Shown here in pieces: positions 191 to 21,300 of a DNA stretch of 64,000 nt. Position numbers and translations under genes: made by a program. Location of the stretch: NCBI GenBank assembly GCA_016182485.1, contig JACPGH010000007.1, forward strand, positions 27,656-91,655, in the 5' to 3' direction. The notes beneath the pieces were generated by a model. It worked only from the letters and a program-made list of their open reading frames with translations, ran no database searches and was not told the DNA's origin. The first letter of the stretch is position 1. Every line of letters starts with the position of its first letter. The stretch is from Candidatus Kaiserbacteria bacterium (GTDB lineage Bacteria > Patescibacteriota > Minisyncoccia > Phycocordibacterales > Phycocordibacteraceae).

Positions 191-213
191 AAAGGACCAG
201 GCTAGGCGATCGC

Positions 214-532: not shown

Positions 533-605
533 ACTCTGGAGCGCTGGAGGCTGGACTCTGGATGCTGGTTTACCCAGCCTCTAGAAACCAGCTTCTAGCC
601 TCCAG
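533..605 (+). repeat. 72-nt hairpin-forming repeat, copy 2, in the P15-P17 region of rnpB
   Basis: ~90% identical to 214-285 by direct inspection. Confidence 0.7.
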
Positions 606-855
606 TTTGTGCCGCTAGATCCCGAGCGCAAGCGAGGGACCAGATAAATGATCGCCGCCGATTTTGCCTGCCGCAGGCAGCTGCAGATTCGACAAGCTCA
701 CTGTGGCGAGCTTTGTCGAGCCACAAATCGAGCGTCCCGAGCAAAGTCGAGGGACTGCGACCCTTCGACAAGCTCAGGGTACTCGATTCTGCAACCACCT
801 TCGGTGGGCAGAATCGGTACAGAATTCGGCTTATCGGCCTGGTCCATAAAACTGC

Positions 856-886: not shown

Positions 887-905
887 CCCAAACCCCGCAG
901 CGCAC

Positions 906-975
906 ATTCTGTGAAGGTCTGACCTTCACAAGCTAAGCGTTCCCTAAATGTGAATGTGAAGGTCAGACCTTCACA
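906..975. repeat. Pair of REP-like 21-bp palindromes (TGTGAAGGTCTGACCTTCACA and its CAG-centred inverse), left flank of the REPtron
   Basis: Perfect inverted repeats tgaaggtc/gaccttca at 908-930 and 954-975. The same palindrome recurs at 1718-1742, 1763-1790 and 18548-18570. Confidence 0.8.
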
Positions 976-984
976 CTACCAGGA

Positions 985-1695
985 CTACCAGGGTTCGAGC
1001 ATGATGGATTTGAAGTCCTCGCCTCGCGAAGCCATGTGCGCCTCGAGCAGTTCCCTCGCCTCTCCTTTGAACGAATCTCCGCTTCCGATAACTTCCGCCA
1101 TTAGCCCCTCTGCATCGTCTACGATCGGAATGGGATTCTCGAAAATGAGACCGGGCAGACTTGAGAATGGATAACGGCACGCCCATTCCCATGCGTCGTC
1201 AAAATTGACAAGCGCCGCTCGCAGCCCGCCTGGATACATCTCGAGTACATTCTTCACGAGGATATAGAACGCGAGGTAATTCAGATGCTCGCCCCTCTCG
1301 ACGACCCTTCCATGATAAGCACCCTGAAATATGCTTCCTTTCTCCTCATATTTCAGGTTGAAACACATGGACATACTTCCGCCTATTCTTTGCATAAATT
1401 TCGCCGTCCCGCCCTTCCGGATTTCTTGCAGCAACAGATGGAAATGGTTCGACAAGAGCGTCCAGGCAAGTATCCGGACCAGCGGCTCGCGTTCGGGCCA
1501 ATGCGATGGGCGTTCGAAAGCGGGAAGTTTGGCCGCTTCTCGATGCCAGTTCGGATCAGTGTAAGTATCGTTGAGCAGCAGAAGCGATCTGGTCGAGCGC
1601 CACCGATCTTCATCGTCGCGTACGATGTCCATTTCGCGAACCCCGCGCTTAGTGACGTGGACAATAGAATCCACTGAGTAGGGTTCAAGCCTCAT
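985..1695 (-). CDS. REP-associated tyrosine transposase (RAYT), an IS200/IS605-like Y1 HUH transposase
   Basis: HUH motif (SNHFHLLLQ) and a downstream YILVKNV segment resembling the RAYT Y-x-x-NPV catalytic region. Flanked on both sides by inverted pairs of the REP palindrome (REPtron layout). The true start may be an internal Met. Confidence 0.55.
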   Translation of the reverse strand: MRLEPYSVDSIVHVTKRGVREMDIVRDDEDRWRSTRSLLLLNDTYTDPNWHREAAKLPAFERPSHWPEREPLVRILAWTLLSNHFHLLLQEIRKGGTAKFMQRIGGSMSMCFNLKYEEKGSIFQGAYHGRVVERGEHLNYLAFYILVKNVLEMYPGGLRAALVNFDDAWEWACRYPFSSLPGLIFENPIPIVDDAEGLMAEVIGSGDSFKGEARELLEAHMASRGEDFKSIMLEPW

Positions 1696-1715
1696 GAAAT
1701 AAGAATACCTCGCGC

Positions 1716-1792
1716 CCCTGTGAAGGTCAGACCTTCACAGGATAGCTGTGGATTACGACAGCTTGTGAAGGTCTGACCTTCACAAGCTGTTC
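1716..1792. repeat. Pair of REP-like palindromes, right flank of the REPtron (extended 14-bp arms acagcttgtgaagg/ccttcacaagctgt)
   Basis: Copies at 1718-1742 (cag centre) and 1763-1790 (ctg centre). Mirror-symmetric to the left-flank pair. Confidence 0.8.
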
Positions 1793-9615: not shown

Positions 9616-11793
9616 ATGCAGGACGACCTGGTAGAAAAATACTTCCCGCGCTTGCGGCGGGAGCAGTTGAGCGCGCTGCGCAAACTGAAAATTCGGACCG
9701 CGCGCGACCTCCTATATCACTTTCCCTCGCGTTATGAACGCTCGGGCCCTTCGGCCCAGATCGCGGGAGTATCGGCGGGAGCCGAAGTAACGCTCTATGG
9801 GATGGTGAGAAAACCGGATGTGCGCAAGACTTGGAAGAGCCGCCGGCCGATAGCCGAAGCGTGGCTTGAAGACGCCTCGGGAAAGATCAAAATGATGTGG
9901 TTCAACCAGCCCTATATCGCGAAGACCTTGCATGACGGGATGGTGGTGAAAGCGCGCGGCCGCGTTTCGGGCGCGGGTTCGAAAGTTTATCTTGCGAATC
10001 CCGAGATCGATCGAACGCCTGTAAATCCGGAAGAGATGCATGACTCTCTCTTTCAACAAGGTCGAACCTTGGAACAAGGTTCGACCTTGGATACCGAGTT
10101 ATATCCTATTTATCCGGAGAGCCAGGGGGTGTCCTCTCTCTGGTTCTTCCACGCGGTGAAGAAGCTTTTCGAGACGCGCGTGCATGAGGGGCTTTCCGAT
10201 CCTATCCCTTCCGACATCCGGGAACGGTACAATCTGCCTGCGCTAACCCCGGCGCTTCTTCTCATGCACGCCCCGCGGCGGCCTGCGGACGCCGCGGCGG
10301 CCCGGAAGCGCTTCGCCTTCGAAGAGATCTTCGCGCTTCAGATCGTGATGCAGAAGCGCCGGCGCGCGCTCCAGTCGGAGCGCGCCCTGCCGGTGGCTGT
10401 GAACCGAGCGGCCCTGGAAGATTTCATCGCCTCGTTTCCCTTTCCGGCTACCGCTGCGCAGTTGAGGGCTATCAACGCAATACTCGCCGATTTCGAAAAG
10501 CCGCATCCGATGATGCGTTTGCTTGAAGGCGACGTGGGGAGCGGCAAGACCGCGGTCGCCGCGGCTACCGCTTATCTCGTCGCGACTTCCCTGCCCGTCG
10601 GTCGCATTGCCGGTGCGCTCCAGGTCGCCTACCTCTGCCCGACCGAGGTGCTCGCGAAGCAGCATTTCTCGACGTTCGTCTCCTATTTCCGCGACCATCC
10701 GATACCTATCGGACTCATTACCGGCAGCGAATGCCGGAAGTTTCCCTCCCGCGTGCGGTATGAAGAATCGGCCAAACTGTCGAAGCCCGCGTTCAAAAAG
10801 ATGGTGGCGGGCGGCGAGATCCCTATCGTCATCGGGACGCACGCGCTCATCGAGCAGTCGCTCTCGTTTAAATATTTCGCCTACGCGATTATCGATGAAC
10901 AGCACCGCTTCGGAACTGGCCACCGGCAAAAAATGGTTTCCAAACACGACATTCAGCCGCACTTGCTCTCGATGACGGCAACGCCTATTCCGCGCACGCT
11001 CGCGCTCACGCTCTACGGCGATCTCGACCTCTCGCTTCTTGACGAGATGCCGGCCGGGAGAAAAAAGGTAATTACGGAAGTCCTCGCGCCGAAAGAGCGC
11101 GAGCGCGCCTATGTCTGCGTACGCGCTGAGCTTGCGAAGCATCACCAGGTTTATGTAATCTGTCCGCGAATCGATGAGCCGGACCCGGCCAAAGAACTCG
11201 CGCTCCAGGCCAAGTCGGTGAAGGCCGAAGCGGCCCGCCTAAAGAAATCCGTGTTCCCTGAAGCGGTGATAGGCATCCTGCACAGTAAGATGACTCCGGC
11301 GGACAAGGAGCAGGCGATGGAGGAATTCAAGAAGGGAGAAATGCAGATCTTAGTGGCCACCTCGGTGGTCGAAGTGGGCGTCAACGTACCGAACGCGACC
11401 GTCATTCTCATCGAAGGGGCCGAACGCTTCGGGCTGGCCCAGCTCCACCAGCTGCGCGGACGCGTCATCCGCTCGACACACCAATCCTACTGCTTCGTCC
11501 TTCCGGAAACGACTGGACCTTCGACCCAAGAGCGGCTGCGGGCATTTAAGAACGCGCAGAACGGGTTCGAGCTCGCCGAGTACGACCTCACGCTCCGCGG
11601 CGCGGGCGAGCTCGCCGGCGGCAGGCAGTGGGGCGTCTCAGACATCGCCATGGACGCGCTCAAGAATCTCAAGCTCGTCGAAGCCGCCCGCGCCGAGGCG
11701 GCAAGCCTCATCGAGCGCGATCCGGAACTCGCGCGCCACCCGGAACTGGCGCGGCGCGCCTCCCTCGCCGGCACGGCGCTCCACCTCGAGTAG
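9616..11793 (+). CDS. recG: ATP-dependent DNA helicase RecG
   Basis: N-terminal wedge/OB domain, Walker A GDVGSGKT, DEQHRFG box, helicase C motifs. 725 aa. Confidence 0.85.
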   Translation: MQDDLVEKYFPRLRREQLSALRKLKIRTARDLLYHFPSRYERSGPSAQIAGVSAGAEVTLYGMVRKPDVRKTWKSRRPIAEAWLEDASGKIKMMWFNQPYIAKTLHDGMVVKARGRVSGAGSKVYLANPEIDRTPVNPEEMHDSLFQQGRTLEQGSTLDTELYPIYPESQGVSSLWFFHAVKKLFETRVHEGLSDPIPSDIRERYNLPALTPALLLMHAPRRPADAAAARKRFAFEEIFALQIVMQKRRRALQSERALPVAVNRAALEDFIASFPFPATAAQLRAINAILADFEKPHPMMRLLEGDVGSGKTAVAAATAYLVATSLPVGRIAGALQVAYLCPTEVLAKQHFSTFVSYFRDHPIPIGLITGSECRKFPSRVRYEESAKLSKPAFKKMVAGGEIPIVIGTHALIEQSLSFKYFAYAIIDEQHRFGTGHRQKMVSKHDIQPHLLSMTATPIPRTLALTLYGDLDLSLLDEMPAGRKKVITEVLAPKERERAYVCVRAELAKHHQVYVICPRIDEPDPAKELALQAKSVKAEAARLKKSVFPEAVIGILHSKMTPADKEQAMEEFKKGEMQILVATSVVEVGVNVPNATVILIEGAERFGLAQLHQLRGRVIRSTHQSYCFVLPETTGPSTQERLRAFKNAQNGFELAEYDLTLRGAGELAGGRQWGVSDIAMDALKNLKLVEAARAEAASLIERDPELARHPELARRASLAGTALHLE

Positions 11794-11796
11794 CAA

Positions 11797-11890
11797 ATTT
11801 TCAATGCTCAATTTCGCAATTTTTAATCAATTTTCAAACATTGATACATTGGGCATTATTTGAAAATTGGAAATTGTAAATTGAAAATTA
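11797..11890. repeat. AT-rich imperfect-palindrome element, family 1 (arms caattttcaa / ttgaaaattg around a loop acattgatacattgg)
   Basis: The same arm/loop layout recurs in every spacer from 11797 to 18339. Confidence 0.75.
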
Positions 11891-11902
11891 TGTTAGACTA
11901 AA

Positions 11903-12889
11903 ATGATGGATTTCCTCGCTATCGGCGACACGACCGTAGACGAATTTATCCGGCTCAAAGAAGCGAAGATCTCTTGCGACGAGAACAGGGATCATTGCAC
12001 TATTACGTTCCCGTGGGGCGAGAAAATTCCCTACGAGTCTTCGGTGCTCCTCCCCGCCGTCGGCAATGCGGCGAATGCGGCCGTAGCGGCGGCGCGCCTC
12101 GGACTCTCTGCGGGCCTCGTGAGCAATGTAGGTAATGACCGTTTCGGCGAAGAGACGCTCGCGGTTTTCCAGCGGGAAGGCGTCGATGTCTCCCATACGC
12201 GCGTCAACGACGGCATCCCTACGAATCACCACTACGTCCTATATTACGATTCCGAGCGGACCATCCTTATCCGGCACGAGGCGTATCCGTACGCTCTGCC
12301 GGAGAATATGACCGCCCCGAAATGGATATACCTCTCCTCGCTCGGCGAAGGCGCGCATGCCTTCCATGACGAACTCGCTGCGTGGCTCGCGGACCACCCG
12401 GAAACCAAGCTCGCTTTCCAGCCGGGCACGTTCCAGATACAGATTGGGCGGGAACGATTGAGAAATTTATATGCGCAAGCGGCAGTCTTCGCGAGTAACA
12501 AGCAGGAGGCGGAAAACATCCTCGGGGTTGGGGACACCGACGTCAGGAGTCTCCTTGAGCAAATGCGGGCGCTGGGGCCGAAAATTGTTCTTATCACAAA
12601 TGGCGTCGCCGGCGCCTACGGCTTCGATGGCGAGAAAATGCTCAAAGTCCCGATGTACCCGGACCCCAAGCCGCCTTATGAGCGCACCGGCGCCGGCGAC
12701 GCCGCCACCGCAACCTTCGTAGCCGCGCTCGCGCTCGGCAAACCTCTGGAAGAAGCGCTTCGCTGGGGACCGATCAACTCGATGTCGGTCGTCCAATTCC
12801 TCGGCGCGCAAGAAGGCCTGCTCTCTCGCGACGCGCTCGAGAAACTGCTCGCCGACGCGCCCGAATCGTACGCAGTAACCACGCTCTAA
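11903..12889 (+). CDS. PfkB-family carbohydrate kinase (ribokinase-like)
   Basis: N-terminal GG motif region and C-terminal TGAGDA anion-hole motif. Confidence 0.75.
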   Translation: MMDFLAIGDTTVDEFIRLKEAKISCDENRDHCTITFPWGEKIPYESSVLLPAVGNAANAAVAAARLGLSAGLVSNVGNDRFGEETLAVFQREGVDVSHTRVNDGIPTNHHYVLYYDSERTILIRHEAYPYALPENMTAPKWIYLSSLGEGAHAFHDELAAWLADHPETKLAFQPGTFQIQIGRERLRNLYAQAAVFASNKQEAENILGVGDTDVRSLLEQMRALGPKIVLITNGVAGAYGFDGEKMLKVPMYPDPKPPYERTGAGDAATATFVAALALGKPLEEALRWGPINSMSVVQFLGAQEGLLSRDALEKLLADAPESYAVTTL

Positions 12890-12892
12890 TTT

Positions 12893-13010
12893 TCAATTAC
12901 CAATTTTCAATTTACATTGAATTTTCAAAGCTTCAATTTTCAAACATTAATACATTGGAAATTGGAACATTATTTGAAAATTGTAAATTGCAAAATTGAA
13001 AATTATTTGG
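12893..13010. repeat. Family-1 AT-rich palindromic element (loop caaacattaatacattgg)
   Basis: Arms caattttcaa ... ttgaaaattg. Inverse orientation of the copy at 16709-16802. Confidence 0.75.
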
Positions 13011-13151
13011 GCTGTTCGAGCCCGTACATCACCCGATTCCCGAAGGTTTCCGCGAGCGTAACATCTGTCGCCACGCGCACGATGAGCAGGGCCGCGCCGC
13101 CGCCAATGATCGTAATGAGCAATGCTCCGATATAAGAATTCACGCAGGCCC

Positions 13152-14165
13152 TCATGCTGCCAATACTATATCGCGTACGAGCGCTTTTGCCGCCTCGATA
13201 ATGTGGGTAACATCAAGCCCGTAGCGCGCCAACAGTTCCTGGGGCGTACCCGATTGGCCGAATTGATCTTGTATCCCGAGCCGTTTGATGGACACGACGT
13301 GTCCATCAGACAAGAATTCCGCGACGGCGCTCCCGAAGCCTCCGGCCGTTTGGTGTTCTTCTAGAGTAAGTACGCGGCCCGCGCTTTCCGCCGCTTCGAG
13401 TATCGCCCCGGTATCGAGGGGCTTCACGGTCGGCACATGGAGTACGACCGAATCGATTCCCTGTTCTTCGAGAGCGCGCGCGGCTTCGAGCGCGGCGTAG
13501 CTCAAGGAACCGGTCGAGAATATGGCGATTTCTGGTTTCTGGTTTCTGGTTTCTGGTTCCCAGAGTATAAGCGCCTTCCCGATCTCAAATGGCGTTTCGC
13601 GAGTGGTGAACACCGGAGTCGCCGCGCGTCCGAAACGTAAATATACAGGCTCTCCCAGGGCAGCCGCCGCAATGACTGCCTTGCGCGCCTCCTCGGCGTC
13701 CGCCGGAGCGATGACCGTCATCCCCGGCAGCATCCGCATCATGCCTATGTCCTCGAGCATCTGGTGCGTGGCGCCGTCGGCGCCGACCGATACGCCCGCA
13801 TGCATCCCGCACACGATGACCGGCATATTGTTGAGAGCAATCGTGGTGCGTATCTGCTCATAATTGCGCCCGGGATTAAACGCGGCATAGCTTGCGATGA
13901 AAGGAATTTTTCCCGCCGCCGCCATGCCCGCCGCCACAGTGGCCATATTCTGTTCCGCGACGCCCATCTCGATGAACCGGTCCGGGAAGGCTTTTTGAAA
14001 TTGTTCGGCGCGGGTGGATTCGGCCAAATCGGCGCAAAGCACTACGACGCGCGCATCCTTTTCTCCCGCCTCCACGCTTCCCGTTCCGAACCCGTCGCGC
14101 GTCGGCGCCGTCTCGATATCGTTCGAAAAAATTTTCTGCGAAAGCTTTGCGGAAAGATCCAACAT
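13152..14165 (-). CDS. Transketolase, C-terminal section (split transketolase subunit B)
   Basis: Pyrimidine-binding and C-terminal domains. Carries an in-frame (tggtttc)x3 microsatellite at 13533-13556. Confidence 0.85.
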   Translation of the reverse strand: MLDLSAKLSQKIFSNDIETAPTRDGFGTGSVEAGEKDARVVVLCADLAESTRAEQFQKAFPDRFIEMGVAEQNMATVAAGMAAAGKIPFIASYAAFNPGRNYEQIRTTIALNNMPVIVCGMHAGVSVGADGATHQMLEDIGMMRMLPGMTVIAPADAEEARKAVIAAAALGEPVYLRFGRAATPVFTTRETPFEIGKALILWEPETRNQKPEIAIFSTGSLSYAALEAARALEEQGIDSVVLHVPTVKPLDTGAILEAAESAGRVLTLEEHQTAGGFGSAVAEFLSDGHVVSIKRLGIQDQFGQSGTPQELLARYGLDVTHIIEAAKALVRDIVLAA

Positions 14166-14294
14166 AATTTTCGATTTACAATTTACAATTTACAAATAAG
14201 GACCAATTTCCAATTTTCAAACAAAGATTCCCGTTTGAGCATTGCACATTGAAAATTTCATTGGAAATTGCAAAATTGAAAATTGAAAATTCTT
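14166..14294. repeat. Family-1 AT-rich palindromic element
   Basis: Arms caatttacaattt... / ...ttgcaaaattgaaaattgaaaatt. Confidence 0.75.
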
Positions 14295-15209
14295 TCATGT
14301 TCTCTGTATTTGAGCTAAGAACCGCTCCCCTTCCTCCGCCGAAGGCGGCTTCCCATGCCACCTATAATCCCCTTCGATTTCCGGCACGCCCTTGCCGGCG
14401 GTCGTATGCGCGATGATTAGCGTCGGAGCGTCCGATACTGCCTTCGCTTCTTCAACCGCCCCGACAAATGCGTCCAAATCGTGCCCATCCACTTCGAGCA
14501 CGCGCCAGTTAAACGCGCGGTACTTCTCGGCGAGCGGTTCGAGCGGCATGACCTCCTCGGTATTGCCGTCGATTTGAATGTTGTTGCGATCCATGATCGC
14601 CGTGAGCCCGGCGAGACGGTGCTTCCCCGCGAACATGGCCGCCTCCCAAGTATTCCCCTCGTCCTGCTCGCCGTCGCTCATCACGCAGTAAATTCTAGGC
14701 GCTAGGCTATAGGCGCTAGGCTCTAGCTCTGATCCGTTTTTAAAATTGGAAATTGAAAATTGTCCGCCGGAGGCGGATCCGCCTTTGGCGGAAAAATTTT
14801 TAAGAGCCCACGCCATTCCCGCCGCCTGCGAGAGGCCCTCGCCAAGAGGCCCTGAGGTGGTTTCGAGACCTGTCAGCCGCGTTCTCTCGGGATGCCCTTG
14901 GAGCCGCGAGCCGAATTTCCGCAATGTGAGACATTCTTCGACCGGGAAATAGCCGGCATGAGCCAGAGTCGCGTACAAGACTGGGCAGATATGCCCGTTG
15001 CTGAGTACGAGCCTATCTCGTTCTTCCCAATCCGGCCGCGCAGGGTCGTGTTTCAAGATATGAAAATAAAAGGCGGCGAAGATGTCCGCCATGTCGAGCG
15101 GCCCCGCCGTGTGGCCGCTGCCCGCGGCGACAAGCATCCGGATCACAGTCTCGCGAATGGCCCGAGCCTTTCCCTCAAGCAGCCGAATCTCCTCATCAGT
15201 CAAAGCCAT
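14295..15209 (-). CDS. Transketolase, N-terminal section (TPP-binding subunit A); contains an in-frame ~25-aa repeat-derived insert
   Basis: GHxxxxxD and GDGE TPP motifs. An insertion (…KNFSAKGGSASGGQFSISNFKNGSELEPSAYSLAP…) is encoded by 14695-14775. Confidence 0.85.
   Translation of the reverse strand: MALTDEEIRLLEGKARAIRETVIRMLVAAGSGHTAGPLDMADIFAAFYFHILKHDPARPDWEERDRLVLSNGHICPVLYATLAHAGYFPVEECLTLRKFGSRLQGHPERTRLTGLETTSGPLGEGLSQAAGMAWALKNFSAKGGSASGGQFSISNFKNGSELEPSAYSLAPRIYCVMSDGEQDEGNTWEAAMFAGKHRLAGLTAIMDRNNIQIDGNTEEVMPLEPLAEKYRAFNWRVLEVDGHDLDAFVGAVEEAKAVSDAPTLIIAHTTAGKGVPEIEGDYRWHGKPPSAEEGERFLAQIQRT
14695..14775. repeat. Composite in-frame insertion inside the transketolase gene: ctaggcg/ctaggct tandem repeat plus a family-1 AT-rich motif (aaaattggaaattgaaaattg)
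   Basis: Direct sequence identity to the intergenic family-1 arms. Reading frame preserved. Confidence 0.7.
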
Positions 15210-15235
15210 GCTCTAAGTATACAGCATGAAACTAC

Positions 15236-15365
15236 CCTAATTTTTCAATTTACAATTTCCAATTTTCAAATAATTACCAATCTCCAATTTTCAAACAAAA
15301 TCCTTGTTTGGACATTGAATCATTGAAAATTGATTGAAAATTGCAAAACTAAACATTGAAAATTC
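15236..15365. repeat. Family-1 AT-rich palindromic element
   Basis: caatttacaatttccaattttcaa ... cattgaaaattgattgaaaattg. Confidence 0.75.
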
Positions 15366-16112
15366 TTAAACCCCGTAGGGATATTGGGCGATATACAACG
15401 CCTCGAACTCGGCGATGGCCTTTGCCGGATCTGCGGCTCGCAATATGCTCGAACCGACCACGAGATTCGAGACTCCGGCGGCAATAAGCCGCTTGGCATT
15501 ATGCAGGGAAACGCCGCCGTCAACCTGGATCGGGAGCCGCGGATATTTCTCGCGCAGGACGCGGATTTTCTCGAATACGCGCTCGTCGAAGGGCTGTCCT
15601 TGGCGGCCGATCCGCGCGATACCCATGCACTGCACGTACTGAACACAGCGGATACAGGGCTTGTCCTTCGTAGCTTCAGCGAAGAAGGGCTCGATGAGCG
15701 CAAGACTGCTCGCGAGATTAATTGCGAGACCGATCGAGAAGCCGCCGGCCTCTCCGAACCGTTCGGAGAGCGAGCCGAGAAGGCGCGGCAGGTCTATGGG
15801 GCTCTCGGCATGTATCGTGAGGCGGCTGGCGCCGAGAGCGAGCCATGCCGCCGCAGCCGCCTCCGCATCGATACACATGATATCGACTTCATACTCGACC
15901 GCGCCGAGCCGCGGCAACATGCCTTCCCAATTTTCAATTTCCAATTTCCAATTTTCAATGCTATACGGCCAGGAGGCAGGCGAGGCGAACTGCCCGTCTA
16001 CGACGTCGATCTGGATACGGTCAATCGAGGGAAGACTCGTGAGGAGTGCGAGTTTTTCTGCCAGCTCTTTTTTGGATGCGGGCAAAACGGCTGGAACGAC
16101 AAATGACATAGC
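15366..16112 (-). CDS. rpe: Ribulose-phosphate 3-epimerase
   Basis: IDVVDGQF…, HxMV-equivalent region, C-terminal VDGG(V)…GSSIL. Start set at MSFVVPAV; the upstream ORF extension only reads through the AT-rich element. Contains an in-frame repeat insert at 15927-15960 (IENWKLEIENW). Confidence 0.8.
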   Translation of the reverse strand, partial: AMSFVVPAVLPASKKELAEKLALLTSLPSIDRIQIDVVDGQFASPASWPYSIENWKLEIENWEGMLPRLGAVEYEVDIMCIDAEAAAAAWLALGASRLTIHAESPIDLPRLLGSLSERFGEAGGFSIGLAINLASSLALIEPFFAEATKDKPCIRCVQYVQCMGIARIGRQGQPFDERVFEKIRVLREKYPRLPIQVDGGVSLHNAKRLIAAGVSNLVVGSSILRAADPAKAIAEFEALYIAQYPYGV

Positions 16113-16216
16113 AAGAAAATTTTCAATTTTCAATTTTGCAATTTTCAAACGTTTGAAAATTAATACATTGAAAATTATTTGTAAATTGAAAATTGTAAAT
16201 TGTAAATTTGGTCATT
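16113..16216. repeat. Family-1 AT-rich palindromic element
   Basis: ttttcaattttcaattttgcaattttcaaacg ... ttgtaaattgaaaattgtaaattg. Confidence 0.75.
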
Positions 16217-16708
16217 CTAGAATTTCGCCAGCCTTCGCGCGTGGCGCGGCGAATCAGAGAACGGCGTGTTCAGGAAAATGCGGACCGCTTCGTCGGCTTC
16301 GCTCCCCGAAACGAACCGGGCGCCGATGCAGAGCACGTTCGCGTTATTGTGCCGGCGCGGGAGGCGCACGGCGTCATACCCGTCCTCCGAGCGGCCGCCT
16401 TCGATGTCGAGCGCTTCGGTCACCCGCATGGGGCCGTAGAAGACCGCGGCGCGGACGCCGGGCACTCGATTGGCGCACATCGCTTCGCCCTGCCCGCTGC
16501 CCCCGAGCGCGATGCCGCGCGCTTCGGGCTCGGCCGCCACGCGGCGGGCGAGCGCCCCGACGACGTCCGGATAATCGTCATCCGGCGCGAGCGAGTACGC
16601 GCCCAGGTCTTCGGCCTCGTGTCCGAGCGCCCGCACGTGCTCGAGGAGCGCGTTCTTCAGGTCAAACCCGGCGTGGTCAGAAGCAAAATAAATTTTCATA
16701 ATTTTCAA
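16217..16708 (-). CDS. rpiB: Ribose-5-phosphate isomerase B (RpiB/LacAB family)
   Basis: MKIYFASDHAGF… and the catalytic Cys region (GSGQGEAMCANR). Confidence 0.85.
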   Translation of the reverse strand: MKIMKIYFASDHAGFDLKNALLEHVRALGHEAEDLGAYSLAPDDDYPDVVGALARRVAAEPEARGIALGGSGQGEAMCANRVPGVRAAVFYGPMRVTEALDIEGGRSEDGYDAVRLPRRHNNANVLCIGARFVSGSEADEAVRIFLNTPFSDSPRHARRLAKF

Positions 16709-16802
16709 TTTTGCAATTTACAATTTTCAAATTATGTCCCAATTTCCAATGTATTAATGTTTGAAAATTTATTGTAAATTGCAAATTGATAATTGAGAAT
16801 TG
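16709..16802. repeat. Family-1 AT-rich palindromic element, inverse orientation
   Basis: Loop ccaatgtattaatgtttg is the reverse complement of the loop in the 12893-13010 copy. Confidence 0.75.
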
Positions 16803-17852
16803 TCACTTGGCCGTGCCGGCCGCTAGGACGTGCCGGACAAGTGACTCCGTATACCCCATCTCGTTGTCGTACCAAGCGAGCACCTTGACGAGATTGCCGT
16901 CCACGACCCGGGTCATGCCGAGGTCAGCGATCGAGGCGCACGGCTCTCCCACGATATCGCTTGAAACCAGCTCCTCATCGGTGGTCATGAAGAGGCCCTC
17001 CCAACGCGAGTCAGCCGCCGCCTTCCGCAAAATGTCATTGACTTCCTCGGCGGATGTCGGCCGCTTCGAAACGAAGGTGATATCCGCGATAGAGCCGGCT
17101 GCCACCGGCACGCGCAGGCTTATCCCGTCGAATTTCCCGGCGAGCGACGGGTACGCCTGCGTCACGGCGACGGCCGCGCCGGTCGAAGTCGGCACGATAT
17201 TAAGCGCGGCCGCCCTCCCTTCCTTCTTGTCTTTTCGCGAAGGCCCGTCGACGATAGACTGACTCGCTGTGTAAGCATGCGCCGTCGAGAGTATCGCCTT
17301 TTCGATACCAAGCGCCTCGTCGAGTATCGCTATGACCGGACTCGCGGCATTCGTCGTGCACGACGCATTCGAACTTATCTGACATGTCGAGAGCTTCTCC
17401 TCATTCACCCCCATCAGCACCGTGGCTCCTAGCGACTGGCTGCTAGTGGCTAGTGGTTGGTTTTTGACCGGTGCAGTGATGACAACACGCTTCGCTCCGG
17501 CCGCGAGATGCGCGCTCGCCTTCTCATAATCGGTGAACAATCCCGTAGACTCGACCGCTACATCGATACCGAGCTCCCCCCAAGGCAAATTCGCCGGCTC
17601 CTTTTCCGAGAAGAACTTCACTTCCTTCCCGTCAATCAGCAAAGCTGATTGCCCCGAGCTTGTCGAGGGGCTGATCCCGACCGAAAATGGCGCGCGCCCA
17701 TATACGGTGTCGTACTTCAATAAATAGGTTAGGTTTTCAAGCGAGCCGAGATCATTCACGGCGACCACTTCGATTCCGCGGCCCTGACTTCTCCTCGCAA
17801 ACGCGCGCCCTATTCGTCCGAATCCGTTAATGGCGACTCTAATGGGTTTCAT
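16803..17852 (-). CDS. gap: Glyceraldehyde-3-phosphate dehydrogenase (type I)
   Basis: NGFGRIGR Rossmann motif and catalytic SCTTN. Start set at MKPIRVAING; the upstream ORF extension is read-through of the repeat. In-frame repeat-derived inserts at ~17423-17460 and ~17640-17680. Confidence 0.85.
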   Translation of the reverse strand: MKPIRVAINGFGRIGRAFARRSQGRGIEVVAVNDLGSLENLTYLLKYDTVYGRAPFSVGISPSTSSGQSALLIDGKEVKFFSEKEPANLPWGELGIDVAVESTGLFTDYEKASAHLAAGAKRVVITAPVKNQPLATSSQSLGATVLMGVNEEKLSTCQISSNASCTTNAASPVIAILDEALGIEKAILSTAHAYTASQSIVDGPSRKDKKEGRAAALNIVPTSTGAAVAVTQAYPSLAGKFDGISLRVPVAAGSIADITFVSKRPTSAEEVNDILRKAAADSRWEGLFMTTDEELVSSDIVGEPCASIADLGMTRVVDGNLVKVLAWYDNEMGYTESLVRHVLAAGTAK

Positions 17853-17933
17853 GATGATAGTGTAGCATGGCCAAAAATGAGAATTTTCAATTTTGCAATT
17901 TTCAATTTTCAATAAATTTTCAAGGCTCAATTT
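17853..17933. repeat. Family-1 element, left-arm type (caattttcaa repeats), abutting the 3' end of the 4HB gene
   Basis: gagaattttcaattttgcaattttcaattttcaataaattttcaaggctcaattttcaaac. Confidence 0.7.
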
Positions 17934-18293
17934 TCAAACGGATCGCGCCGAGGCAGCAATTTTTTGGAAAATTAATGTTAATTCTTGGCTCTCTTTCTGT
18001 AATCTCCCTAAAGCATCGTCTTCTATCGTCCCACAGGACACCAGCATCCTAAGCCAGTGCTTCGTTTCTTGTATCTCTTTTTTGCATATGTAAATCTTGT
18101 TGACGAAATCTCTTTTTGAGCTGGCGCCGTTCGCTTCCATATAATTGGCTCCTACGCTCGTACCAGAGCGTAAAAGTTGGTTAACAATTGGATCTGTTAT
18201 ATGACTACGATGGATTTTCTTACAAAGCGATATAATTTCTTCACCAAACCGAGCCGTTCTTTCTTCTAGATCGTATTTCTTCGTTTGATCCAT
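17934..18293 (-). CDS. Four-helix-bundle protein (PF05635/TIGR02436, '23S rRNA intervening-sequence protein' family)
   Basis: 119 aa. Motifs LRSGTSVGANYMEA and RDFVNKIYICKKEIQETKHWL match the 4HB family. Sits exactly between a left arm and a right arm of a family-1 element. Confidence 0.75.
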   Translation of the reverse strand: MDQTKKYDLEERTARFGEEIISLCKKIHRSHITDPIVNQLLRSGTSVGANYMEANGASSKRDFVNKIYICKKEIQETKHWLRMLVSCGTIEDDALGRLQKESQELTLIFQKIAASARSV

Positions 18294-18339
18294 TGAAAAT
18301 TGGTCCTTATTTGAAAATTGGAAATTGTAAATTGAAAAA
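18294..18339. repeat. Family-1 element, right-arm type (ttgaaaattg repeats), upstream of the 4HB gene
   Basis: ccattgaaaattggtccttatttgaaaattggaaattgtaaattgaaaaatt. Confidence 0.7.
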
Positions 18340-21300
18340 TTATTGTGGCGTTGTCGAAGTTTCGGTAGCCGCGGAGAGGGGCTCGATTACTGTCACTAGC
18401 CTCGAAACCGAACCCGTGTTCCCCGCCGCGTCCGTCGCGCTGTAGGTGAGCGTGTATGAGCCGGCTGTTGCGGTATCTGCGGAACCCGAGGTCGCGATTT
18501 TTGCCGTTAGGTCTCCGTCCGTTTCATCTGTAGCGGTCGCCCCCGGGTCTGTGAAGGTCTGACCTTCACTGATCTGCATCGCCGCCTCTCCGTTCAAGGT
18601 CACGATCGGAGGTTGAGAGTCTGAATCCGGACTTATGACTTCCGACTCTGGAGTAGCGCTCGACTCTTGACTCGTGACTTGTGACTCTTGACTTGTTGTA
18701 CCGGCTACTACGCTCCCGTTGCCTACGATCACCGACCGCGTCGCCATGATGCTCCCATTCGGCCCGAGTACGCGATAGGTGATTATGTAGGTCGTCTCGC
18801 TTGAGGTATCAATAGTCCCCGGGCCGACTTCCGACTCCACGCCGTTGATATAAGTCGTTACGGGCGCACCCCCTGCATCGATTCCCGGATCAACGAAGTT
18901 CCCCCCGACCTCGATCAGATAAGGATTATCCCCGAGCACCGTAATCCATTGGGTGCTCGTGTTTGAATTGGAAATTGAAAATTGAGAATTGGAAATTTGT
19001 GACTCTGGCGTGCTTGTCGCCATCTGCCCTTCCGTCTGGATCAAGAAGTAATCGAAGGAGGTGTCTCCCGCCTGCGGGCTCTCGAGCACGAGGCGGAAGG
19101 AGCCGTCCTTCTTCTCCGCGATATACCAGGAGCCGGTCGTCGAGGCGGTGAAGGTGACGAATATCTTGGTCGAGGGCTTCACGTAGGCGTTCTGCACCTC
19201 CGCGACCGTGTTGCCGGCGATTATTTTCACCGTCCCGGCCGAGCTCGTACCGGCGGAATTCGTCGCCGCGACGAACTGGTCGGCCACGAGCGTGCCGAAC
19301 TGCGCGATGCCCTTCGCGATATAGGCGCCAAAGGCGTTAAAGGCGCTCGCGAGCGAGGTCGTCGAGAAGGAGACCGGCGAGCCGGAGGCAGAGGAGACCG
19401 CGCCGCTCTCGAGCGCCGCGAGGCGCGCCTCGAGCGAGGTGAGCCGCACCTCGGCGCGATCGACCTTCTCGGCGAGCGTCTGCACGCCCGCGAGGGTCAG
19501 GGTCGCGAGCTTGTAGAGATCCACGCCGTTGCCGTCTATCGAGAGGATCTCGGGCGCCGTCTCCCGCGCATCCTCGGCAATGAGGCCGAGCCGGAGCGGG
19601 TTGCTCCCGGCCTCTGCCGCGTAGCGATACGTCGCGACCTTGAGCCCGCGAACCTTGCCCAGCACGGCCTCGGTCGAGCTCGCGCTCATATAATTGATGT
19701 CGGTCTTGAGCGCGCGCGTCGAAGTGTTCACGAAGCTCGTCGCGCTCACTTCCTGCGCCGTGAGGCGATTGATGTAGCCCTCGTTCGTCACCGCGAGATT
19801 CGATGTCCACACGGAGGTCGAGGCGACAAAAGAATCCGCCGCTACGTTGCCATATACTGTGAACAAGCCGGCAGCTTGGTGCGGAAACGATCCTGTCACT
19901 TCGATTTCTGAGGGTTCGATTCCCTCTGCCGGCTTTTGCAGGTTTTCCACAATGCTTGCCGGGGTGCTTGACGCGTAAACCCAGTTTGCTATAATAGGTG
20001 CGGTGACAGGCTCGTTTCTCGCAGAAATCGAACCCTCGTAAGAGAACCCGAAGTAGCCGCCCGTAAGGGCGGTTATTTCGTTTTCCAGCGTCCCTACCCT
20101 CCCCGCGAGCCGCGTCGAAGTGGTGCTCAGCTCCTGTATCGCCAGTATCATCGGCGCGGCGAGGCCGTCGTAATTGATGGAGAGCGTGCCGTCGGGCGTG
20201 AGCGAGGTGGGGGCGGAAGTCTGTACGAGATCCGGGAACACCTCTCGCACCTGCTGGGCGATGAGGCCGAATTGCTTCTGGCTCGAGCGCTCCGCCGCCG
20301 GATCCCAGTAGAAAGAAACGGGCCGGAGCGCGTCGATCGCAGACAGCCCGCTCGCTGTCGCGAGCGGGCTTATATCCTGCTTCAGCCGCTCGTCAGACGC
20401 GGAGCAGGCGAGGAGGCCGTTGCCGTTAGACGTGAAGCCGGTGCAGTTCTTGTAGCCGTCGAAGGTGACGTTCGCCGTCTCCCCGCCGACTTCAAGCAGG
20501 GTCGCGGGCGTCGTAGTCCCGAGGCCTATCGCGCTCGCGCTCATGTAGATCGGCTGGACGCCGCTCCCCACGAGGCGCGAGGTGATGATGAGATTGCCGG
20601 TTGAGGCGTCGATGCCGAATTCGCCGATGTAGTTGGGGTCGGAGCCGTTGTAGATGGTCATGGCGGAAGCGCTCCCCGCGGTCGTCACGATCGAGAAGCG
20701 CTCGCTTTGTCCGCCGGGGCTTGCCGTCCCAATCCCGACATCACCGGAGTCGTCGATCACGAACGGCGTCGGGTCGCCTGCCTGGTCGTTCACGGCGAAG
20801 GAGAGCGCGGCGCTCGTATTCTCGACCGCGAACTTCGCGAACGGCGTGCTCGAGGCGATGCCGACCCGCTCGTTCGTGGCGACATAGAGCGAGGAAGTGG
20901 CGGTGAGGGTCGTACCGGTCCCCGCATAGTATGGGAACTGCCCGGCCGTGCCGGAACCGACCGTCCCTGTCCCGCTCCCGCCTCCCACGCAGACTCCGTT
21001 AATCGCAAAACATCCTGTTCGTATATCAATGCCGGAGCCGAACGTGGACGTGGCGGTCGCCGAAATGTTAATCGTATTGGCTCCCGTATCTCCAAGCGAG
21101 AGCAGCGTCCCCGGACTCGTCGTCCCGATGCCGACGTTGCCTTCTATTATCATCCCGTTAGTGGGAGCCGCCGCACCGTAATTTGTTCCCACGGAAACCC
21201 CTCCAGCAATACTCAATTTACTTCCCGGAGTAGTGGTGCCAATACCAACCCTCTGGTTGTACCCTCCAGAGACACCGCCAATAAAGAACGGCGTGTAGCT

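What the first reader, a model, noticed from the sequence alone, without database searches (positions are those of the whole stretch)
14695..14775. Repeat-derived DNA inserted in frame in the transketolase TPP-binding subunit
An ~80-bp block (ctaggcg/ctaggct tandem units + aaaattggaaattgaaaattg + the palindrome ccgccggaggcgg) interrupts the conserved region just before the GDGE motif without breaking the frame. It adds ~25 low-complexity residues (…GGSASGGQFSISNFKNGSELEPSAYSLAP…). The AT-rich part is identical to the intergenic family-1 arms.
Basis: seen in the sequence. Interest (0 to 1): 0.6.

Follow-up and report, generated by a model that had tools for sequence, protein, structure and literature searches.

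The report
Selfish repeat DNA inside a transketolase gene
A loop of an otherwise normal transketolase gene in an uncultivated Kaiserbacteria (CPR) bacterium carries 84 extra in-frame bases built from three kinds of repeat DNA, one of them a 30-base palindrome that turns up, precisely inserted and in frame, in housekeeping genes of many unrelated environmental bacteria.

Summary
The gene (14295-15209, minus strand) is the TPP-binding N-terminal subunit of a split transketolase. Its loop between helix ...GMAWAL and strand RIYCVMSDGE is 36 aa. It is 8 aa in most relatives and 5 aa in the solved split enzyme 6YAK.

The insert is a composite of three parts:
1. An (AATTTTC)n heptamer array, identical to the arms of the ~110-nt intergenic hairpins around the gene. 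Four related genomes have it at the same site.
2. A 30-nt double mini-hairpin, TCCGCCnnnGGCGGA x2, encoding SAKGGSASGG. It is inserted precisely into that array; an empty site exists in a relative.
3. A 39-nt piece with a (CTAGNGC)x4 array.

The 30-mer is a dispersed element. Of these, 93 lie in long open frames and 76 of those use the same reading frame. Hosts are housekeeping genes of CPR and Chloroflexota-like contigs, and orthologues without the element exist. In other relatives the same loop holds REP doublets matching their own RAYT-flanking REPs.

The best reading is tolerated selfish or neutral DNA in a permissive loop. This resembles Rickettsia palindromic elements and intragenic REPs, and the 30-mer family appears undescribed. 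The mobilising enzyme is unknown.

The parts
14295..15209 (-). tktN: N-terminal (TPP-binding) subunit of a split transketolase, 304 aa, intact ORF
   Evidence: Pfam PF00456 2.8e-61. 100% identical to an NCBI 'transketolase [Candidatus Kaiserbacteria bacterium]' protein. Best PDB match is 6yak, the split-chain TK N-terminal component, at 1.1e-69. AF2 model pTM 0.82; Foldseek top hit 6yak with TM 0.79/0.85.
13152..14165 (-). tktC: C-terminal subunit of the split transketolase, immediately downstream. It carries its own small in-frame heptamer array at 13529-13558 (TTTCTGG x4.3, 'EPETRNQKPE').
   Evidence: Pfam Transket_pyr 2.9e-43 and Transketolase_C 1.4e-27. TRF array. A 4-aa surplus relative to the L081/L082 orthologues at that loop.
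14697..14801 (-). Whole variable loop K137-P171 (105 nt) between helix ...GMAWAL and strand RIYCVMSDGE. It has a net +84 nt over the modal loop of relatives.
   Evidence: Alignment A1; loop census; 6yak alignment broken at query 137/171; pLDDT 46-53 for residues 141-170.
14763..14792 (.). 30-nt double mini-hairpin TCCGCCaaaGGCGGA-TCCGCCtccGGCGGA (gene strand), encoding S140-G149 'SAKGGSASGG'. A precise insertion with no target duplication.
   Evidence: As ssDNA it folds into two 6-bp hairpins, -12.8 kcal/mol, z -3.7. Empty site in L208: AAGAATTTT^CAATTTTCAATTTCCAATTT against window AAAAATTTT[30 nt]CAATTTTCAATTTCCAATTT. 123 further copies on 120 metagenome contigs.
14742..14762 (-). Three heptamers CAATTTT CAATTTC CAATTTT (Q150-F156, 'QFSISNF'). 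Together with AAAAATTTT at 14793-14801 they form a 4-unit (AATTTTC) array that the 30-mer splits.
   Evidence: The same array sits at the same codon position in L081, L082, L208 and L209.
14697..14741 (-). AAAAAC + GGATCAGAG + (CTAGAGC CTAGCGC CTATAGC CTAGCGC) CT, encoding K157-P171 'KNGSELEPSAYSLAP'. This is a second heptamer array, unique in the data held.
   Evidence: TRF period 7, 4.6 copies. No other copy in the window beyond chance or in about 1.5 Mb of fetched loci. No significant fold, z -0.17. Same register and unit number as the (CTACAAC)x4 array of L001/L083.
14166..14294 (.). Family-1 intergenic hairpin (tktC-tktN spacer): (AATTTAC)n ... loop ... (GAAAATT)n. It is one of at least 7 spacers of this type between 11.8 and 18.4 kb (11794-11902, 12885-13012, 15236-15368, 16112-16212, 16695-16805, and arms at 17880-17940 / 18285-18340).
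   Evidence: Repeat families D1-D9 and inverted pairs I1-I25. Hairpin folds. Consensus alignment A6 including L081/L082 spacers. No Rfam match at E<=0.1.
15927..15959 (-). The same heptamer family in frame inside rpe ('IENWKLEIENW'), in the opposite orientation. It replaces a loop of similar length in orthologues.
   Evidence: alignment A2.

Best explanation
The 84 extra bases are tolerated selfish or neutral repeat DNA that accumulated stepwise in a length-permissive, probably solvent-exposed loop of the transketolase TPP-binding subunit. Their persistence needs no function to explain it.

Step 1 (shown by comparison). A four-unit heptanucleotide array, AAR+(AAYNYNC)x4+AACCT, occupies this loop in a large subset of relatives. 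In this lineage and four others its units are AATTTTC. That is the unit of the ~110-nt hairpin elements filling the neighbouring intergenic spacers. The array was therefore either seeded from, or homogenised with, that local family.

Step 2 (shown). A 30-nt palindromic mini-element (two 15-nt hairpins, TCCGCCnnnGGCGGA) was inserted precisely between AATTTT and CAATTTT, without target-site duplication. Its 24 fixed bases specify no stop codon in any frame. Its length is 10 codons. In the favoured frame it reads SAxGGSAxGG on either strand. It can therefore land in a coding loop without breaking the gene.

Step 3 (inferred). A further 39 nt carrying a CTAGNGC array was added. This happened either by slippage and divergence, or by unequal recombination with a CTACAAC-type allele.

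Selection then kept only in-frame, stop-free, flexible products.

The copying mechanism of the 30-mer is inferred, not shown. A hairpin-recognising single-strand DNA transposition of the IS200/IS605-RAYT (HUH Y1) kind fits three observations: the absence of target duplication, the hairpin doublet, and the T-rich|A-rich junction. No cognate enzyme was identified.
For: Extra relative to homologues: the loop is 8 aa in 54/69 species loci and in 50/120 closest proteins. The window's is the longest at 36 aa. 6yak has 5 aa where the window has 33. E. coli transketolase has a long loop at this position (aligned stretch in 1qgd), so length variation here is tolerated.

Core intact: the window shares every invariant column of the family alignment. 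The AF2 core is confident and matches transketolases, while the insert has low confidence.

Hot spot: at least five sequence-unrelated insert classes sit at this one site. REP doublets in L015, L026, L033 and L039 match REPs elsewhere in the same locus; in L015 and L033 these REPs flank a RAYT-like gene.

Heptamer part: the same array is at the same position in L081, L082, L208 and L209. Family-1 hairpins occur in all those loci but in only 1 of 83 other Kaiserbacteria-type loci.

30-mer:
- Empty site in L208.
- 123 copies with unrelated flanks.
- 93/123 in open frames >=150 aa, split 76/12/5 by phase.
- Hosts are DnaE, CCA-adding enzyme, a class II aaRS, PGI, GatB, UvrC, ABC1 and AlaRS.
- Presence/absence at orthologous sites in GAPDH, GatB and Mfd.
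- No TSD; T at -2 in 85% and A at +2 in 84% of copies.
- 14-fold enrichment of period-7 arrays in its flanks.
Against: - No read-level or second-assembly support exists for this exact insert; its protein cluster has 1 member on 1 contig.
- Translation of the insert is not shown.
- Only one copy of the 30-mer lies in the 64-kb window. It does not flank the window's RAYT-like gene, whose flanking palindrome is GTGAAGGTCWGACCTTCAC. Only 1 of 120 metagenome loci has a RAYT homologue nearby. The proposed enzyme class is therefore unsupported.
- Component 3 has no other copy anywhere I could look, so 'repeat-derived' is weaker for that part.
- The identical (AACCTAC)x4 DNA in two 20%-diverged backgrounds is not what neutral decay predicts. 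It hints at homogenisation or constraint that I cannot explain.
- Solvent exposure was not measured on coordinates.
Confidence: 0.72

Rival explanations
1. The loop insert is an adaptive, functional addition, such as a flexible linker or disordered region recruited for regulation, partner binding or localisation of transketolase.
For: More than half of the 120 closest homologues carry some insert at this site. The 13-aa 'KNLQPTTYNLQP' version is identical in many diverged proteins, and identical at the DNA level in L001 and L083. Tandem repeats creating disordered regions under selection are described for Borg elements (PMC9879509).
Against: The inserts at this site are mutually unrelated in sequence, length (6-36 aa) and origin: REP doublets, several heptamer types, and the 30-mer. 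The same DNA elements sit in intergenic spacers, in RNase P RNA and in unrelated enzymes. Most species representatives do without any insert.
Confidence: 0.1
2. Purely local microsatellite growth. The whole block arose in situ by replication slippage of sequences already in the gene, with no DNA imported from elsewhere.
For: Two of the three parts are period-7 tandem arrays. Arrays at this site keep the same length and register while their unit sequence differs between lineages, as expected for concerted evolution. The CTAGNGC array has no other copy.
Against: The 30-nt palindrome is not a tandem repeat of neighbouring sequence. It occurs with the same 24 fixed bases in 120 other contigs with unrelated flanks, and a precise empty site exists. 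The AATTTTC unit co-occurs with family-1 hairpins in the same loci: 5 of 5 against 1 of 83.
Confidence: 0.08
3. The heptamer arrays make tktN a contingency (phase-variable) gene. Gain or loss of one 7-nt unit shifts the frame and switches transketolase off or on.
For: The unit length of 7 is not a multiple of 3. Perfect 4.7-unit arrays exist in relatives (L001, L083). Heptamer arrays are frequent in this genome's genes.
Against: In the window both arrays are short and imperfect, and one is interrupted by the 30-mer. That lowers slippage. All 69 loci whose loop could be parsed and all 120 proteins are in frame. L001 and L083 have the same unit number. Transketolase is central in these reduced genomes.
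Confidence: 0.05
4. Assembly or sequencing artefact: a chimeric join or collapsed repeat placed foreign bases in the gene.
For: A single assembly supports this exact sequence. Repeats and palindromes are error-prone in short-read assembly.
Against: The insert is exactly 3n long, stop-free and at a site that is independently variable in dozens of other assemblies. Each component type is seen in frame in independent assemblies from different projects. The triloops of the 30-mer vary between copies, so it is not a fixed synthetic oligonucleotide.
Confidence: 0.03
5. The insert is not translated. It is removed from the mRNA or skipped by the ribosome, as an intron-like element or by translational bypassing.
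For: The GC-rich double hairpin could stall ribosomes. Bypassed mobile inserts are known in phage T4 gene 60 and in yeast mitochondria (from memory).
Against: If inserts were skipped there would be no need for every insert at this site to be 3n long and stop-free, yet all are. The 76/12/5 frame bias of the 30-mer argues that its peptide is exposed to selection. No Rfam family matches the region.
Confidence: 0.02

Closest known systems
Rickettsia palindromic elements (RPE; Ogata et al. 2000, as summarised in PMC10969869)
   Same: Palindromic dispersed DNA inserted in frame in unrelated housekeeping or metabolic genes. It adds a peptide without destroying the protein, and is present or absent between orthologues.
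   Different: RPEs are about 100-150 bp, confined to Rickettsia, and encode a family-specific peptide. Here the mobile unit is 30 nt, occurs on contigs of at least two phyla, and reads the same on both strands. The tktN insert is additionally a composite with heptamer arrays.
Intragenic REPs, GTAG/CGTC-tagged (Di Nocera et al. 2013, PMC3733652), and REPIN/RAYT systems (PMC3116915; PMC2817692)
   Same: Short GC-rich hairpins, commonly as inverted doublets, sometimes inside ORFs where dimers encode 20-30 aa. In relatives (L015, L026, L033, L039) the tktN loop holds exactly such REP doublets, matching REPs that flank the RAYT-like gene in L015 and L033.
   Different: The window's 30-mer has no GTAG or CGTC head and does not flank the window's RAYT-like gene. 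It is single-copy in 64 kb rather than hundreds per genome. It shows a strong coding and one-frame bias, whereas REPs are mainly extragenic.
Cyanobacterial STRR heptanucleotide repeats (7-bp repeats able to form hairpins between genes, PMC2670836; STRR inside RNase P RNA, Vioque 1997, title seen in the reference list of PMC2858038)
   Same: Tandem 7-nt units, several unit sequences per genome. They form intergenic hairpins of unknown function. They also occur inside the RNase P RNA gene, as here at 224-290 and 536-605.
   Different: Here the host is a CPR bacterium, not a heterocystous cyanobacterium. The units differ (AAATTGN, GCTGGAK, CTAGNGC and others), and the arrays also lie in frame in enzymes.
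Small dispersed repeats (SDR) of Nostoc punctiforme (Elhai et al. 2008; recalled from memory, cited as ref. 43 in PMC3116915)
   Same: Mobile repeats of only 21-27 nt, some palindromic, reported nested in other repeats including heptamer arrays. This parallels the 30-mer sitting inside heptamer arrays.
   Different: Different sequences and taxa. I could not read the paper, so the comparison is a lead and not a test.
Borg tandem repeats creating disordered protein regions (PMC9879509)
   Same: Rapidly evolving tandem repeats that add low-complexity peptide to proteins.
   Different: Per that paper's abstract, Borg repeats arise independently and are under selection; that their intragenic unit lengths are multiples of 3 is from memory. 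Here units are 7 nt, shared with intergenic hairpins, and combined with a palindromic insertion.

Membership tests
Split transketolase, N-terminal (TPP-binding) subunit | Transketolase_N domain with the TPP/Mg-binding motif region | tested here: met
   PF00456 2.8e-61 over residues 15-293. SDGE...DRNN is present and invariant in the family alignment. 6yak at 1.1e-69.
Split transketolase, N-terminal (TPP-binding) subunit | Separate adjacent gene for the pyrimidine-binding and C-terminal domains | tested here: met
   13152-14165 (-) has Transket_pyr and Transketolase_C. The same gene order appears in L081-L085 and L208.
In-frame palindromic selfish DNA (RPE-like) | Dispersed copies with unrelated flanks | tested here: met
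For the heptamer part: 15 matches in the window against 0 expected. Not met for the CTAGNGC part.
In-frame palindromic selfish DNA (RPE-like) | Located inside ORFs without breaking the frame | tested here: met
   93/123 copies are in open frames >=150 aa, inside Pfam domains of housekeeping enzymes. tktN is intact.
In-frame palindromic selfish DNA (RPE-like) | Presence/absence between orthologues (empty sites) | tested here: met
   tktN window against L208. GAPDH L084 and L081 against four orthologues. GatB P0121 against P0122/P0123. Mfd L195 against P0241-P0243.
In-frame palindromic selfish DNA (RPE-like) | Insert lies on the protein surface and is compatible with the fold | tested here: inconclusive
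   The insert lies between a helix and a strand, with pLDDT 46-53 against 81-87 in the flanks. It is unaligned to 6yak. No solvent-accessibility calculation on coordinates was possible.
REP / REPIN - RAYT system | 20-40 nt imperfect palindrome with a GT(A/G)G (or CGTC) head | tested here: not met
   The 15-nt unit TCCGCCnnnGGCGGA has no such head. Relatives' inserts do, e.g. ATGTAGGACGTCGTACGTCCTACAT.
REP / REPIN - RAYT system | Units arranged as inverted doublets | tested here: met
   The 30-mer is two abutting units. Loop 1 is purine-rich and loop 2 pyrimidine-rich; 15/123 copies are perfect palindromes.
REP / REPIN - RAYT system | The same palindrome flanks a RAYT (HUH Y1 transposase) gene in the genome | tested here: not met
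   The window's RAYT-like ORF 985-1695 (HFH motif; PF01797 22.2 bits, cut-off 23) is flanked by GTGAAGGTCWGACCTTCAC, not by the 30-mer. Only 1/120 30-mer loci has a RAYT homologue, and it is 4.6 kb away. Only 64 kb of this genome was visible.
REP / REPIN - RAYT system | High copy number, mainly extragenic | tested here: not met
   One copy in 64 kb. One doublet and two singles in 690 kb of Kaiserbacteria-type loci. 76% of copies are in long open frames.
MITE | Terminal inverted repeats plus target-site duplication | tested here: not met
   Inverted symmetry is present, but direct repeats of 2-5 nt at the junctions occur at chance level. No duplication is visible at the tktN empty site.
STRR-like heptanucleotide arrays | Tandem 7-nt units, several unit types per genome, hairpin-forming between genes | tested here: met
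   TRF lists many period-7 arrays with different units. Spacers fold as hairpins with heptamer arms. Period-7 arrays are about 3 times as frequent as period 6 or 8 in control positions.
STRR-like heptanucleotide arrays | Occurrence in heterocyst-forming cyanobacteria (the taxon for which STRR were defined) | tested here: not met
   The organism is Candidatus Kaiserbacteria by the identical NCBI protein and by its relatives.

The most novel reading that the evidence does not exclude
The 30-nt palindrome TCCGCCnnnGGCGGATCCGCCnnnGGCGGA is an undescribed, cross-phylum family of ultra-small mobile elements that is compatible with coding sequence by construction. It is 10 codons long, its fixed bases specify no stop in any of six frames, and it gives the same Ser/Ala/Gly peptide in either orientation. 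It is currently active or recently active in CPR bacteria and Chloroflexota. It inserts without target duplication at T|A-rich junctions, often in heptamer arrays, in loops of essential enzymes. Together with REP doublets, heptamer arrays and at least one further mini-element (CCTTCGACAAGCTCAGGGCAA, 'PSTSSGQ'), it would make loop hypervariability by selfish DNA a general property of these streamlined proteomes.
Probability: 0.45. Interest if true: 0.8.

Novelty: new variant of a known kind. Interest (0 to 1): 0.62.

Why it matters
**Protein evolution in reduced genomes.** CPR bacteria have tiny, streamlined genomes and are thought to carry little junk. Here, central-metabolism and information-processing enzymes, and the RNase P ribozyme, carry selfish repeat DNA in permissive loops. 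One loop of transketolase has been hit independently by several element types. If general, this is a source of protein-length heterogeneity and new disordered segments in a very large part of bacterial diversity.

**Practical consequences.** It is a caution for alignment, annotation and structure prediction of CPR proteins. The presence/absence sites could also serve as strain markers.

**A minimal mobile element.** The 30-nt palindrome would be among the smallest mobile DNAs known. It poses a concrete, testable question: which enzyme copies a 15-nt hairpin doublet without target duplication?

**Heptamer hairpins.** Hairpins with heptamer arms are known from cyanobacteria as STRR, and they also occur there inside RNase P RNA. 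Finding them here suggests an unexplained 7-nt-periodic mutational or protein-binding process that is not confined to cyanobacteria.

Tried and rejected
- **First AF2 model.** Built from 32 sequences; too poor to use (pLDDT 49). Replaced by a 92-sequence run.
- **NJ tree of 189 tktN sequences.** Insert classes are scattered, but the protein is too conserved for a resolved tree. I do not claim a number of independent events from it. The hot-spot claim rests on sequence-unrelated insert classes instead.
- **30-mer at the apex of pre-existing hairpins.** This impression from reading the flanks did not survive a test. Watson-Crick pairs between flanks equal the shuffled null (3.93 against 3.97). 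Only the association with period-7 arrays held.
- **RAYT linkage of the 30-mer.** tblastn with three Y1 transposases found one distant case in 120 loci. Rejected as evidence.
- **Stem covariation in the 15-nt hairpin.** Too few variants, because the copies were ascertained by an exact pattern.
- **CTAGNGC block as a hairpin element.** The fold is not better than shuffles.
- **CTAGNGC block as a dispersed repeat.** No other copy was found.
- **Rfam.** Nothing in the pentose-phosphate cluster at E<=0.1.
- **Viral carriage.** Only 2 hits in the viral contig collection.
- **Literature.** Searches for the 30-mer core, its peptide, in-frame palindromes in Patescibacteria, and heptamer repeats in CPR found nothing relevant. 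Elhai 2008 and Vioque 1997 could not be opened.
- **Promoter or terminator role.** Heptamer arrays give weak TTGAAA-N17/18-GAAAAT matches (17 against 4.8 expected). These are poor -10 boxes, so I draw no conclusion.
Full report
**What is there**

The window comes from a Candidatus Kaiserbacteria (CPR/Patescibacteria) contig. The protein encoded at 14295-15209 (minus strand) is 100% identical to an NCBI 'transketolase [Candidatus Kaiserbacteria bacterium]' entry on a 123-kb contig.

The ORF is intact at 304 aa. It matches Pfam Transketolase_N at 2.8e-61. It is followed by the gene for the C-terminal subunit (13152-14165) and preceded by rpe, rpiB and gapdh. This is the N-terminal, TPP-binding half of a split transketolase. 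Its best solved relative is 6yak, 'N-terminal component of the split chain transketolase' (1.1e-69).

**Checking the observation**

Read on the gene strand, the segment is:

CTT AAA AAT TTT | TCCGCCAAAGGCGGA TCCGCCTCCGGCGGA | CAATTTT CAATTTC CAATTTT | AAAAAC | GGATCAGAG | CTAGAGC CTAGCGC CTATAGC CTAGCGC CT | AGA ATT TAC TGC...

This translates to L-K-N-F-[SAKGGSASGG]-[QFSISNF]-K-N-[GSE]-[LEPSAYSLAP]-R-I-Y-C.

- The AT-rich 21-mer has 15 matches (<=3 mismatches) in the window against 0 expected.
- The CTAGGCG units are a period-7 array of 4.6 copies.
- The 'palindrome' is half of a 30-nt double hairpin at 14763-14792.

**Is it extra?**

Yes. In 80 species-representative genomes fetched with the protein, the stretch between ...QAxGxAxA and R[IV]YCxMSDGE is 8 aa (xRMDGKKQ) in 54 of the 69 loci I could parse. 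The window's 36 aa is the longest. Among the 120 closest proteins, 50 have 8 aa.

HMMER aligns the window protein to 6yak in two blocks: query 6-137 to chain 32-163, and query 171-302 to chain 169-300. That gives 33 aa here against 5 there. E. coli transketolase has a long loop at the same place (aligned stretch in 1qgd), so the position tolerates length.

An AlphaFold2 model built on 92 homologues has pLDDT 79 and pTM 0.82. It matches 6yak with TM 0.79/0.85. It places residues 141-170 at pLDDT 46-53 between helix 125-143 and strand 173-177. I could not compute solvent exposure, so 'surface loop' is well supported but not measured.

**The site is a lineage-wide hot spot**

The alignment and the censuses show many different things at this one position. 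They fall into mutually unrelated classes.

(a) DNA palindromes. An example is L015: ATGTGGGACATCGGAAGTCCCACAT-CAG-ATGTGGGACTTCCGATGTCCA, -24.9 kcal/mol, z -10. Others are in L026, L033, L006, L004, L014, L021 and L039.

The 25-nt arms of these palindromes recur elsewhere in the same locus. In L015 and L033 they flank an ORF that matches the IS200-like Y1 transposase family: PF01797 at 2e-5 for L015, with an HYH motif. These are REP doublets (REPIN-like) of a REP/RAYT system, as defined in PMC2817692 and PMC3116915. They have the GTAG head described in PMC3733652. That paper already reports REPs inside genes, with dimers encoding 20-30 aa. In L015 a REP even lies in frame inside the RAYT-like gene itself.

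(b) A 13-aa 'KN' class in 30 of the 120 closest proteins. At the DNA level it is always AAR + four heptamers + AACCT + CGY:
- (AACCTAC)x4, identical in L001 and L083
- AATCTCA/AAACACA in L085
- AATTTTC in L082

(c) Other short inserts of different sequence.

I built a neighbour-joining tree. The protein is too conserved to resolve it. I therefore rest the hot-spot claim on the unrelatedness of the insert classes, not on counted events.

**Component 1: the heptamer array**

The window's CAATTTY units match the arms of the ~110-nt hairpin elements that fill every spacer of the pfkB-tktC-tktN-rpe-rpiB-gapdh cluster between 11.8 and 18.4 kb. All 16 phased arrays of this unit in the window lie in that 8-kb stretch.

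Four other genomes have the same gene order and an (AATTTYC)n array at the very same codon position of tktN:
- L081: AAAAATTTTCAATTTTCAATTTTCAATTTCC...
- L082
- L208
- L209

By blastn, all four also carry family-1 hairpins in their spacers. Only one (L002) of the 83 other Kaiserbacteria-type loci does. These genomes may form a clade, so this is an association and not five independent events.

The AT-rich part is therefore genuinely the local intergenic repeat, but it is old enough to be shared. The same unit lies in frame in rpe (15927-15959, opposite orientation). There it replaces a native loop rather than adding to it. Other period-7 arrays lie in frame in tktC, gapdh, gatB, obg and the giant ORF.

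**Component 2: the 30-nt palindrome**

Removing exactly 14763-14792 from the window gives AAAAATTTTCAATTTTCAATTTCCAATTT. L208 reads AAGAATTTTCAATTTTCAATTTCCAATTT. L208 is therefore an unoccupied site, the insertion is precise, and there is no target duplication.

All have unrelated flanks. With 24 specified bases, chance matches are negligible.

Properties of those copies:
- Host contig G+C ranges from 28% to 72%.
- Loop 1 is purine-rich (AGA, AAA, GGA...) and loop 2 pyrimidine-rich (TTT, TCT, TTC...).
- The junctions are T-rich on the left (T at -2 in 85%) and A-rich on the right (A at +2 in 84%). Direct repeats occur at chance level.
- 93 of 123 copies lie in stop-free frames of at least 150 aa. 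Of those, 76 are in the phase reading SAxGGSAxGG, 12 read PPxADPPxAE and 5 read RRRRIRLRR. Against equal thirds this is a chi-square of about 99 (my arithmetic).

Because the element is its own reverse complement, the favoured phase gives the same peptide in either orientation. The 24 fixed bases specify no stop in any frame (read from the sequence).

Ten hosts examined are DNA polymerase III alpha, CCA-adding enzyme, a class II aminoacyl-tRNA synthetase, phosphoglucose isomerase, GatB, UvrC, an ABC1 kinase, two alanyl-tRNA synthetases and one protein with no Pfam match. In the matched hosts the element lies inside or between Pfam domains.

Presence/absence at orthologous sites was seen four times:
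- tktN, as described above.
- GAPDH of L084 (VDGP-VSARGGSASGGKK-ID) and of L081 (two codons away, slightly decayed), against four orthologues without it.
- GatB of a Candidatus Wolfebacteria protein, against its 85-87% identical relatives. Four of 117 GatB proteins have it at that column, and one has the PPxADPPxAE version elsewhere.
- Mfd on a 72% G+C contig whose homologues are Dehalococcoidia/Chloroflexi. Three 83-90% identical relatives lack exactly the ten residues.

The flanks of the element are 14-fold enriched for period-7 arrays (12/245 against 0.34% of control positions). The window's arrangement, a 30-mer inside a heptamer array, is therefore recurrent.

Only two copies were found in the viral contig collection. 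Searches of the paper library for the core sequence, the peptide and related concepts returned nothing relevant. That is not proof of novelty.

**Component 3**

The remaining 39 nt are GGATCAGAG plus four CTAGNGC units. They have no other copy in the window or in about 1.5 Mb of fetched loci, and they do not fold better than shuffles.

Their register and unit number match the (CTACAAC)x4 array of L001/L083: AAAAAC + 4 x CTAnnnC + CT + Arg codon. The window loop thus looks like two 'KN' modules in tandem: KNF...QFSISNF, then KN...LEPSAYSLAP.

Unequal recombination between an AATTTTC-type and a CTACAAC-type allele would produce this. So would slippage followed by divergence. This step is inference.

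**How it most likely works**

- *Shown:* the gene is intact, and the insert is extra, composite and made of sequence classes that occur elsewhere. The 30-mer behaves as a mobile insertion, with empty sites, unrelated flanks and many hosts.
- *Inferred:* the loop is tolerant, and selection filters for 3n, stop-free, flexible peptides. The frame bias of the 30-mer and the universal in-frame state of all inserts at this site fit that.
- *Inferred with low support:* the copying mechanism. A hairpin doublet, no target duplication and a short conserved junction are what HUH/Y1 single-strand transposition (IS200/IS605, RAYT) produces. These genomes do encode RAYT-like proteins. However, the window's RAYT-like gene (985-1695; HFH motif; Pfam hit 22.2 bits against cut-off 23) is flanked by a different palindrome, GTGAAGGTCWGACCTTCAC. 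Only one of 120 30-mer loci has such a gene nearby.

The origin of the 7-nt periodicity is unexplained.

**Comparison with what is known**

Functionally the closest analogues are these:
- Rickettsia palindromic elements (in-frame selfish DNA in metabolic genes; PMC10969869).
- Intragenic REPs (PMC3733652).
- For the heptamer hairpins, cyanobacterial STRR sequences. These are 7-bp repeats that can form hairpins between genes, of unknown function (PMC2670836). By the title of Vioque 1997 they also lie within RNase P RNA. This window's RNase P RNA does likewise.

The 30-mer fails the REP/RAYT membership features I could test: head motif, RAYT flanking, copy number and extragenic bias. It also fails the MITE criterion of target duplication. 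I therefore file it as working like an RPE or REPIN, but not as a member of those families.

**Verdict**

The finding is confirmed and its interpretation supported. The single insertion is a modest curiosity. What it exposes is more interesting:
- a hot-spot loop hit by several element types;
- STRR-like heptamer hairpins in a CPR genome;
- a 30-nt, coding-compatible palindrome spread across phyla.

**Main caveats**
- Only one assembly supports this exact insert.
- There is no expression evidence.
- Copies were ascertained by an exact pattern in a capped scan.
- Long open frames were used as a proxy for coding.
- The mobilising enzyme is unidentified.

Noticed in passing
window 194-849 (+): RNase P RNA (Rfam RF00010, E 7e-20 but 66 bits, below the gathering score of 100) is 656 nt long because of three large insertions. 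Two are ~70-nt hairpins with GCTGGAK heptamer arms (224-290, 536-605). The third is a ~140-nt block of mini-palindromes near the 3' end. This parallels STRR in cyanobacterial RNase P RNA.
   Followed up: partly
window 905-1790: REPtron-like unit. A RAYT-like ORF at 985-1695 (-) has an HFH motif; its PF01797 hit (22.2 bits) is just under the cut-off. It is flanked by two copies on each side of the perfect palindrome GTGAAGGTCWGACCTTCAC (911, 956, 1720, 1765). A fifth copy lies at 18551.
   Followed up: partly
window 762-782 and 17649-17669; also L042:4426, L147:3002, L180:3314, L189:4386, L195:1270: A second dispersed mini-element, CCTTCGACAAGCTCAGGGCAA. It lies inside the RNase P RNA gene and in frame in GAPDH ('PSTSSGQ'). 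It also sits in the tktN hot-spot loop of another genome (L042) and on the Dehalococcoidia-like contig.
   Followed up: partly
window 18340-37398 (-): A single 6352-aa ORF. It contains in-frame repeats, including a perfect 51-nt duplication (35569-35671), heptamer arrays (18662-18693, 18966-18997, 35496-35527) and a REP copy near its 3' end. Its function was not examined.
   Followed up: no
window 39698-39738 (gatB), 40490-40516 (obg), 17442-17456 (gapdh), 13529-13558 (tktC), 15927-15959 (rpe): Period-7/14 tandem arrays lie in frame in several housekeeping genes. The gatB array sits in a loop where 57 of 117 homologues carry assorted inserts.
   Followed up: partly
L015:8100-8858 (-): The RAYT-like gene of a relative carries its own REP in frame ('NVGHRKSHT') between the N-terminal region and the HUH motif.
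   Followed up: no
L001:899-938 and L083 tktN loop: Two genomes whose transketolases differ by roughly 20% have base-for-base identical (AACCTAC)x4.7 arrays in the loop. No copy of that unit lies elsewhere in their loci. Neutral decay does not predict this.
   Followed up: partly
window 17950-18290 (-): A small gene resembling the four-helix-bundle '23S rRNA intervening sequence protein' family (PF05635 is annotated at the syntenic position in L082 and L208). It sits between gapdh and the giant ORF and is bracketed by inverted family-1 arms. I identified it by eye from the translation and did not scan it.
   Followed up: no
window 11700-18500: Heptamer arrays create 17 weak sigma-70-like matches (TTGAAA-N17/18-GAAAAT) against 4.8 expected. 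The 30-mer followed by A/T runs scores as a terminator-like site on the strand antisense to tktN.
   Followed up: no
L130, L157, L185 (metagenome loci): In three contigs the 30-mer is nested in another shared repeat (...TAGCCGGTAT | 30-mer | AAAACCGGCTCTAC...). This suggests composite elements.
   Followed up: no
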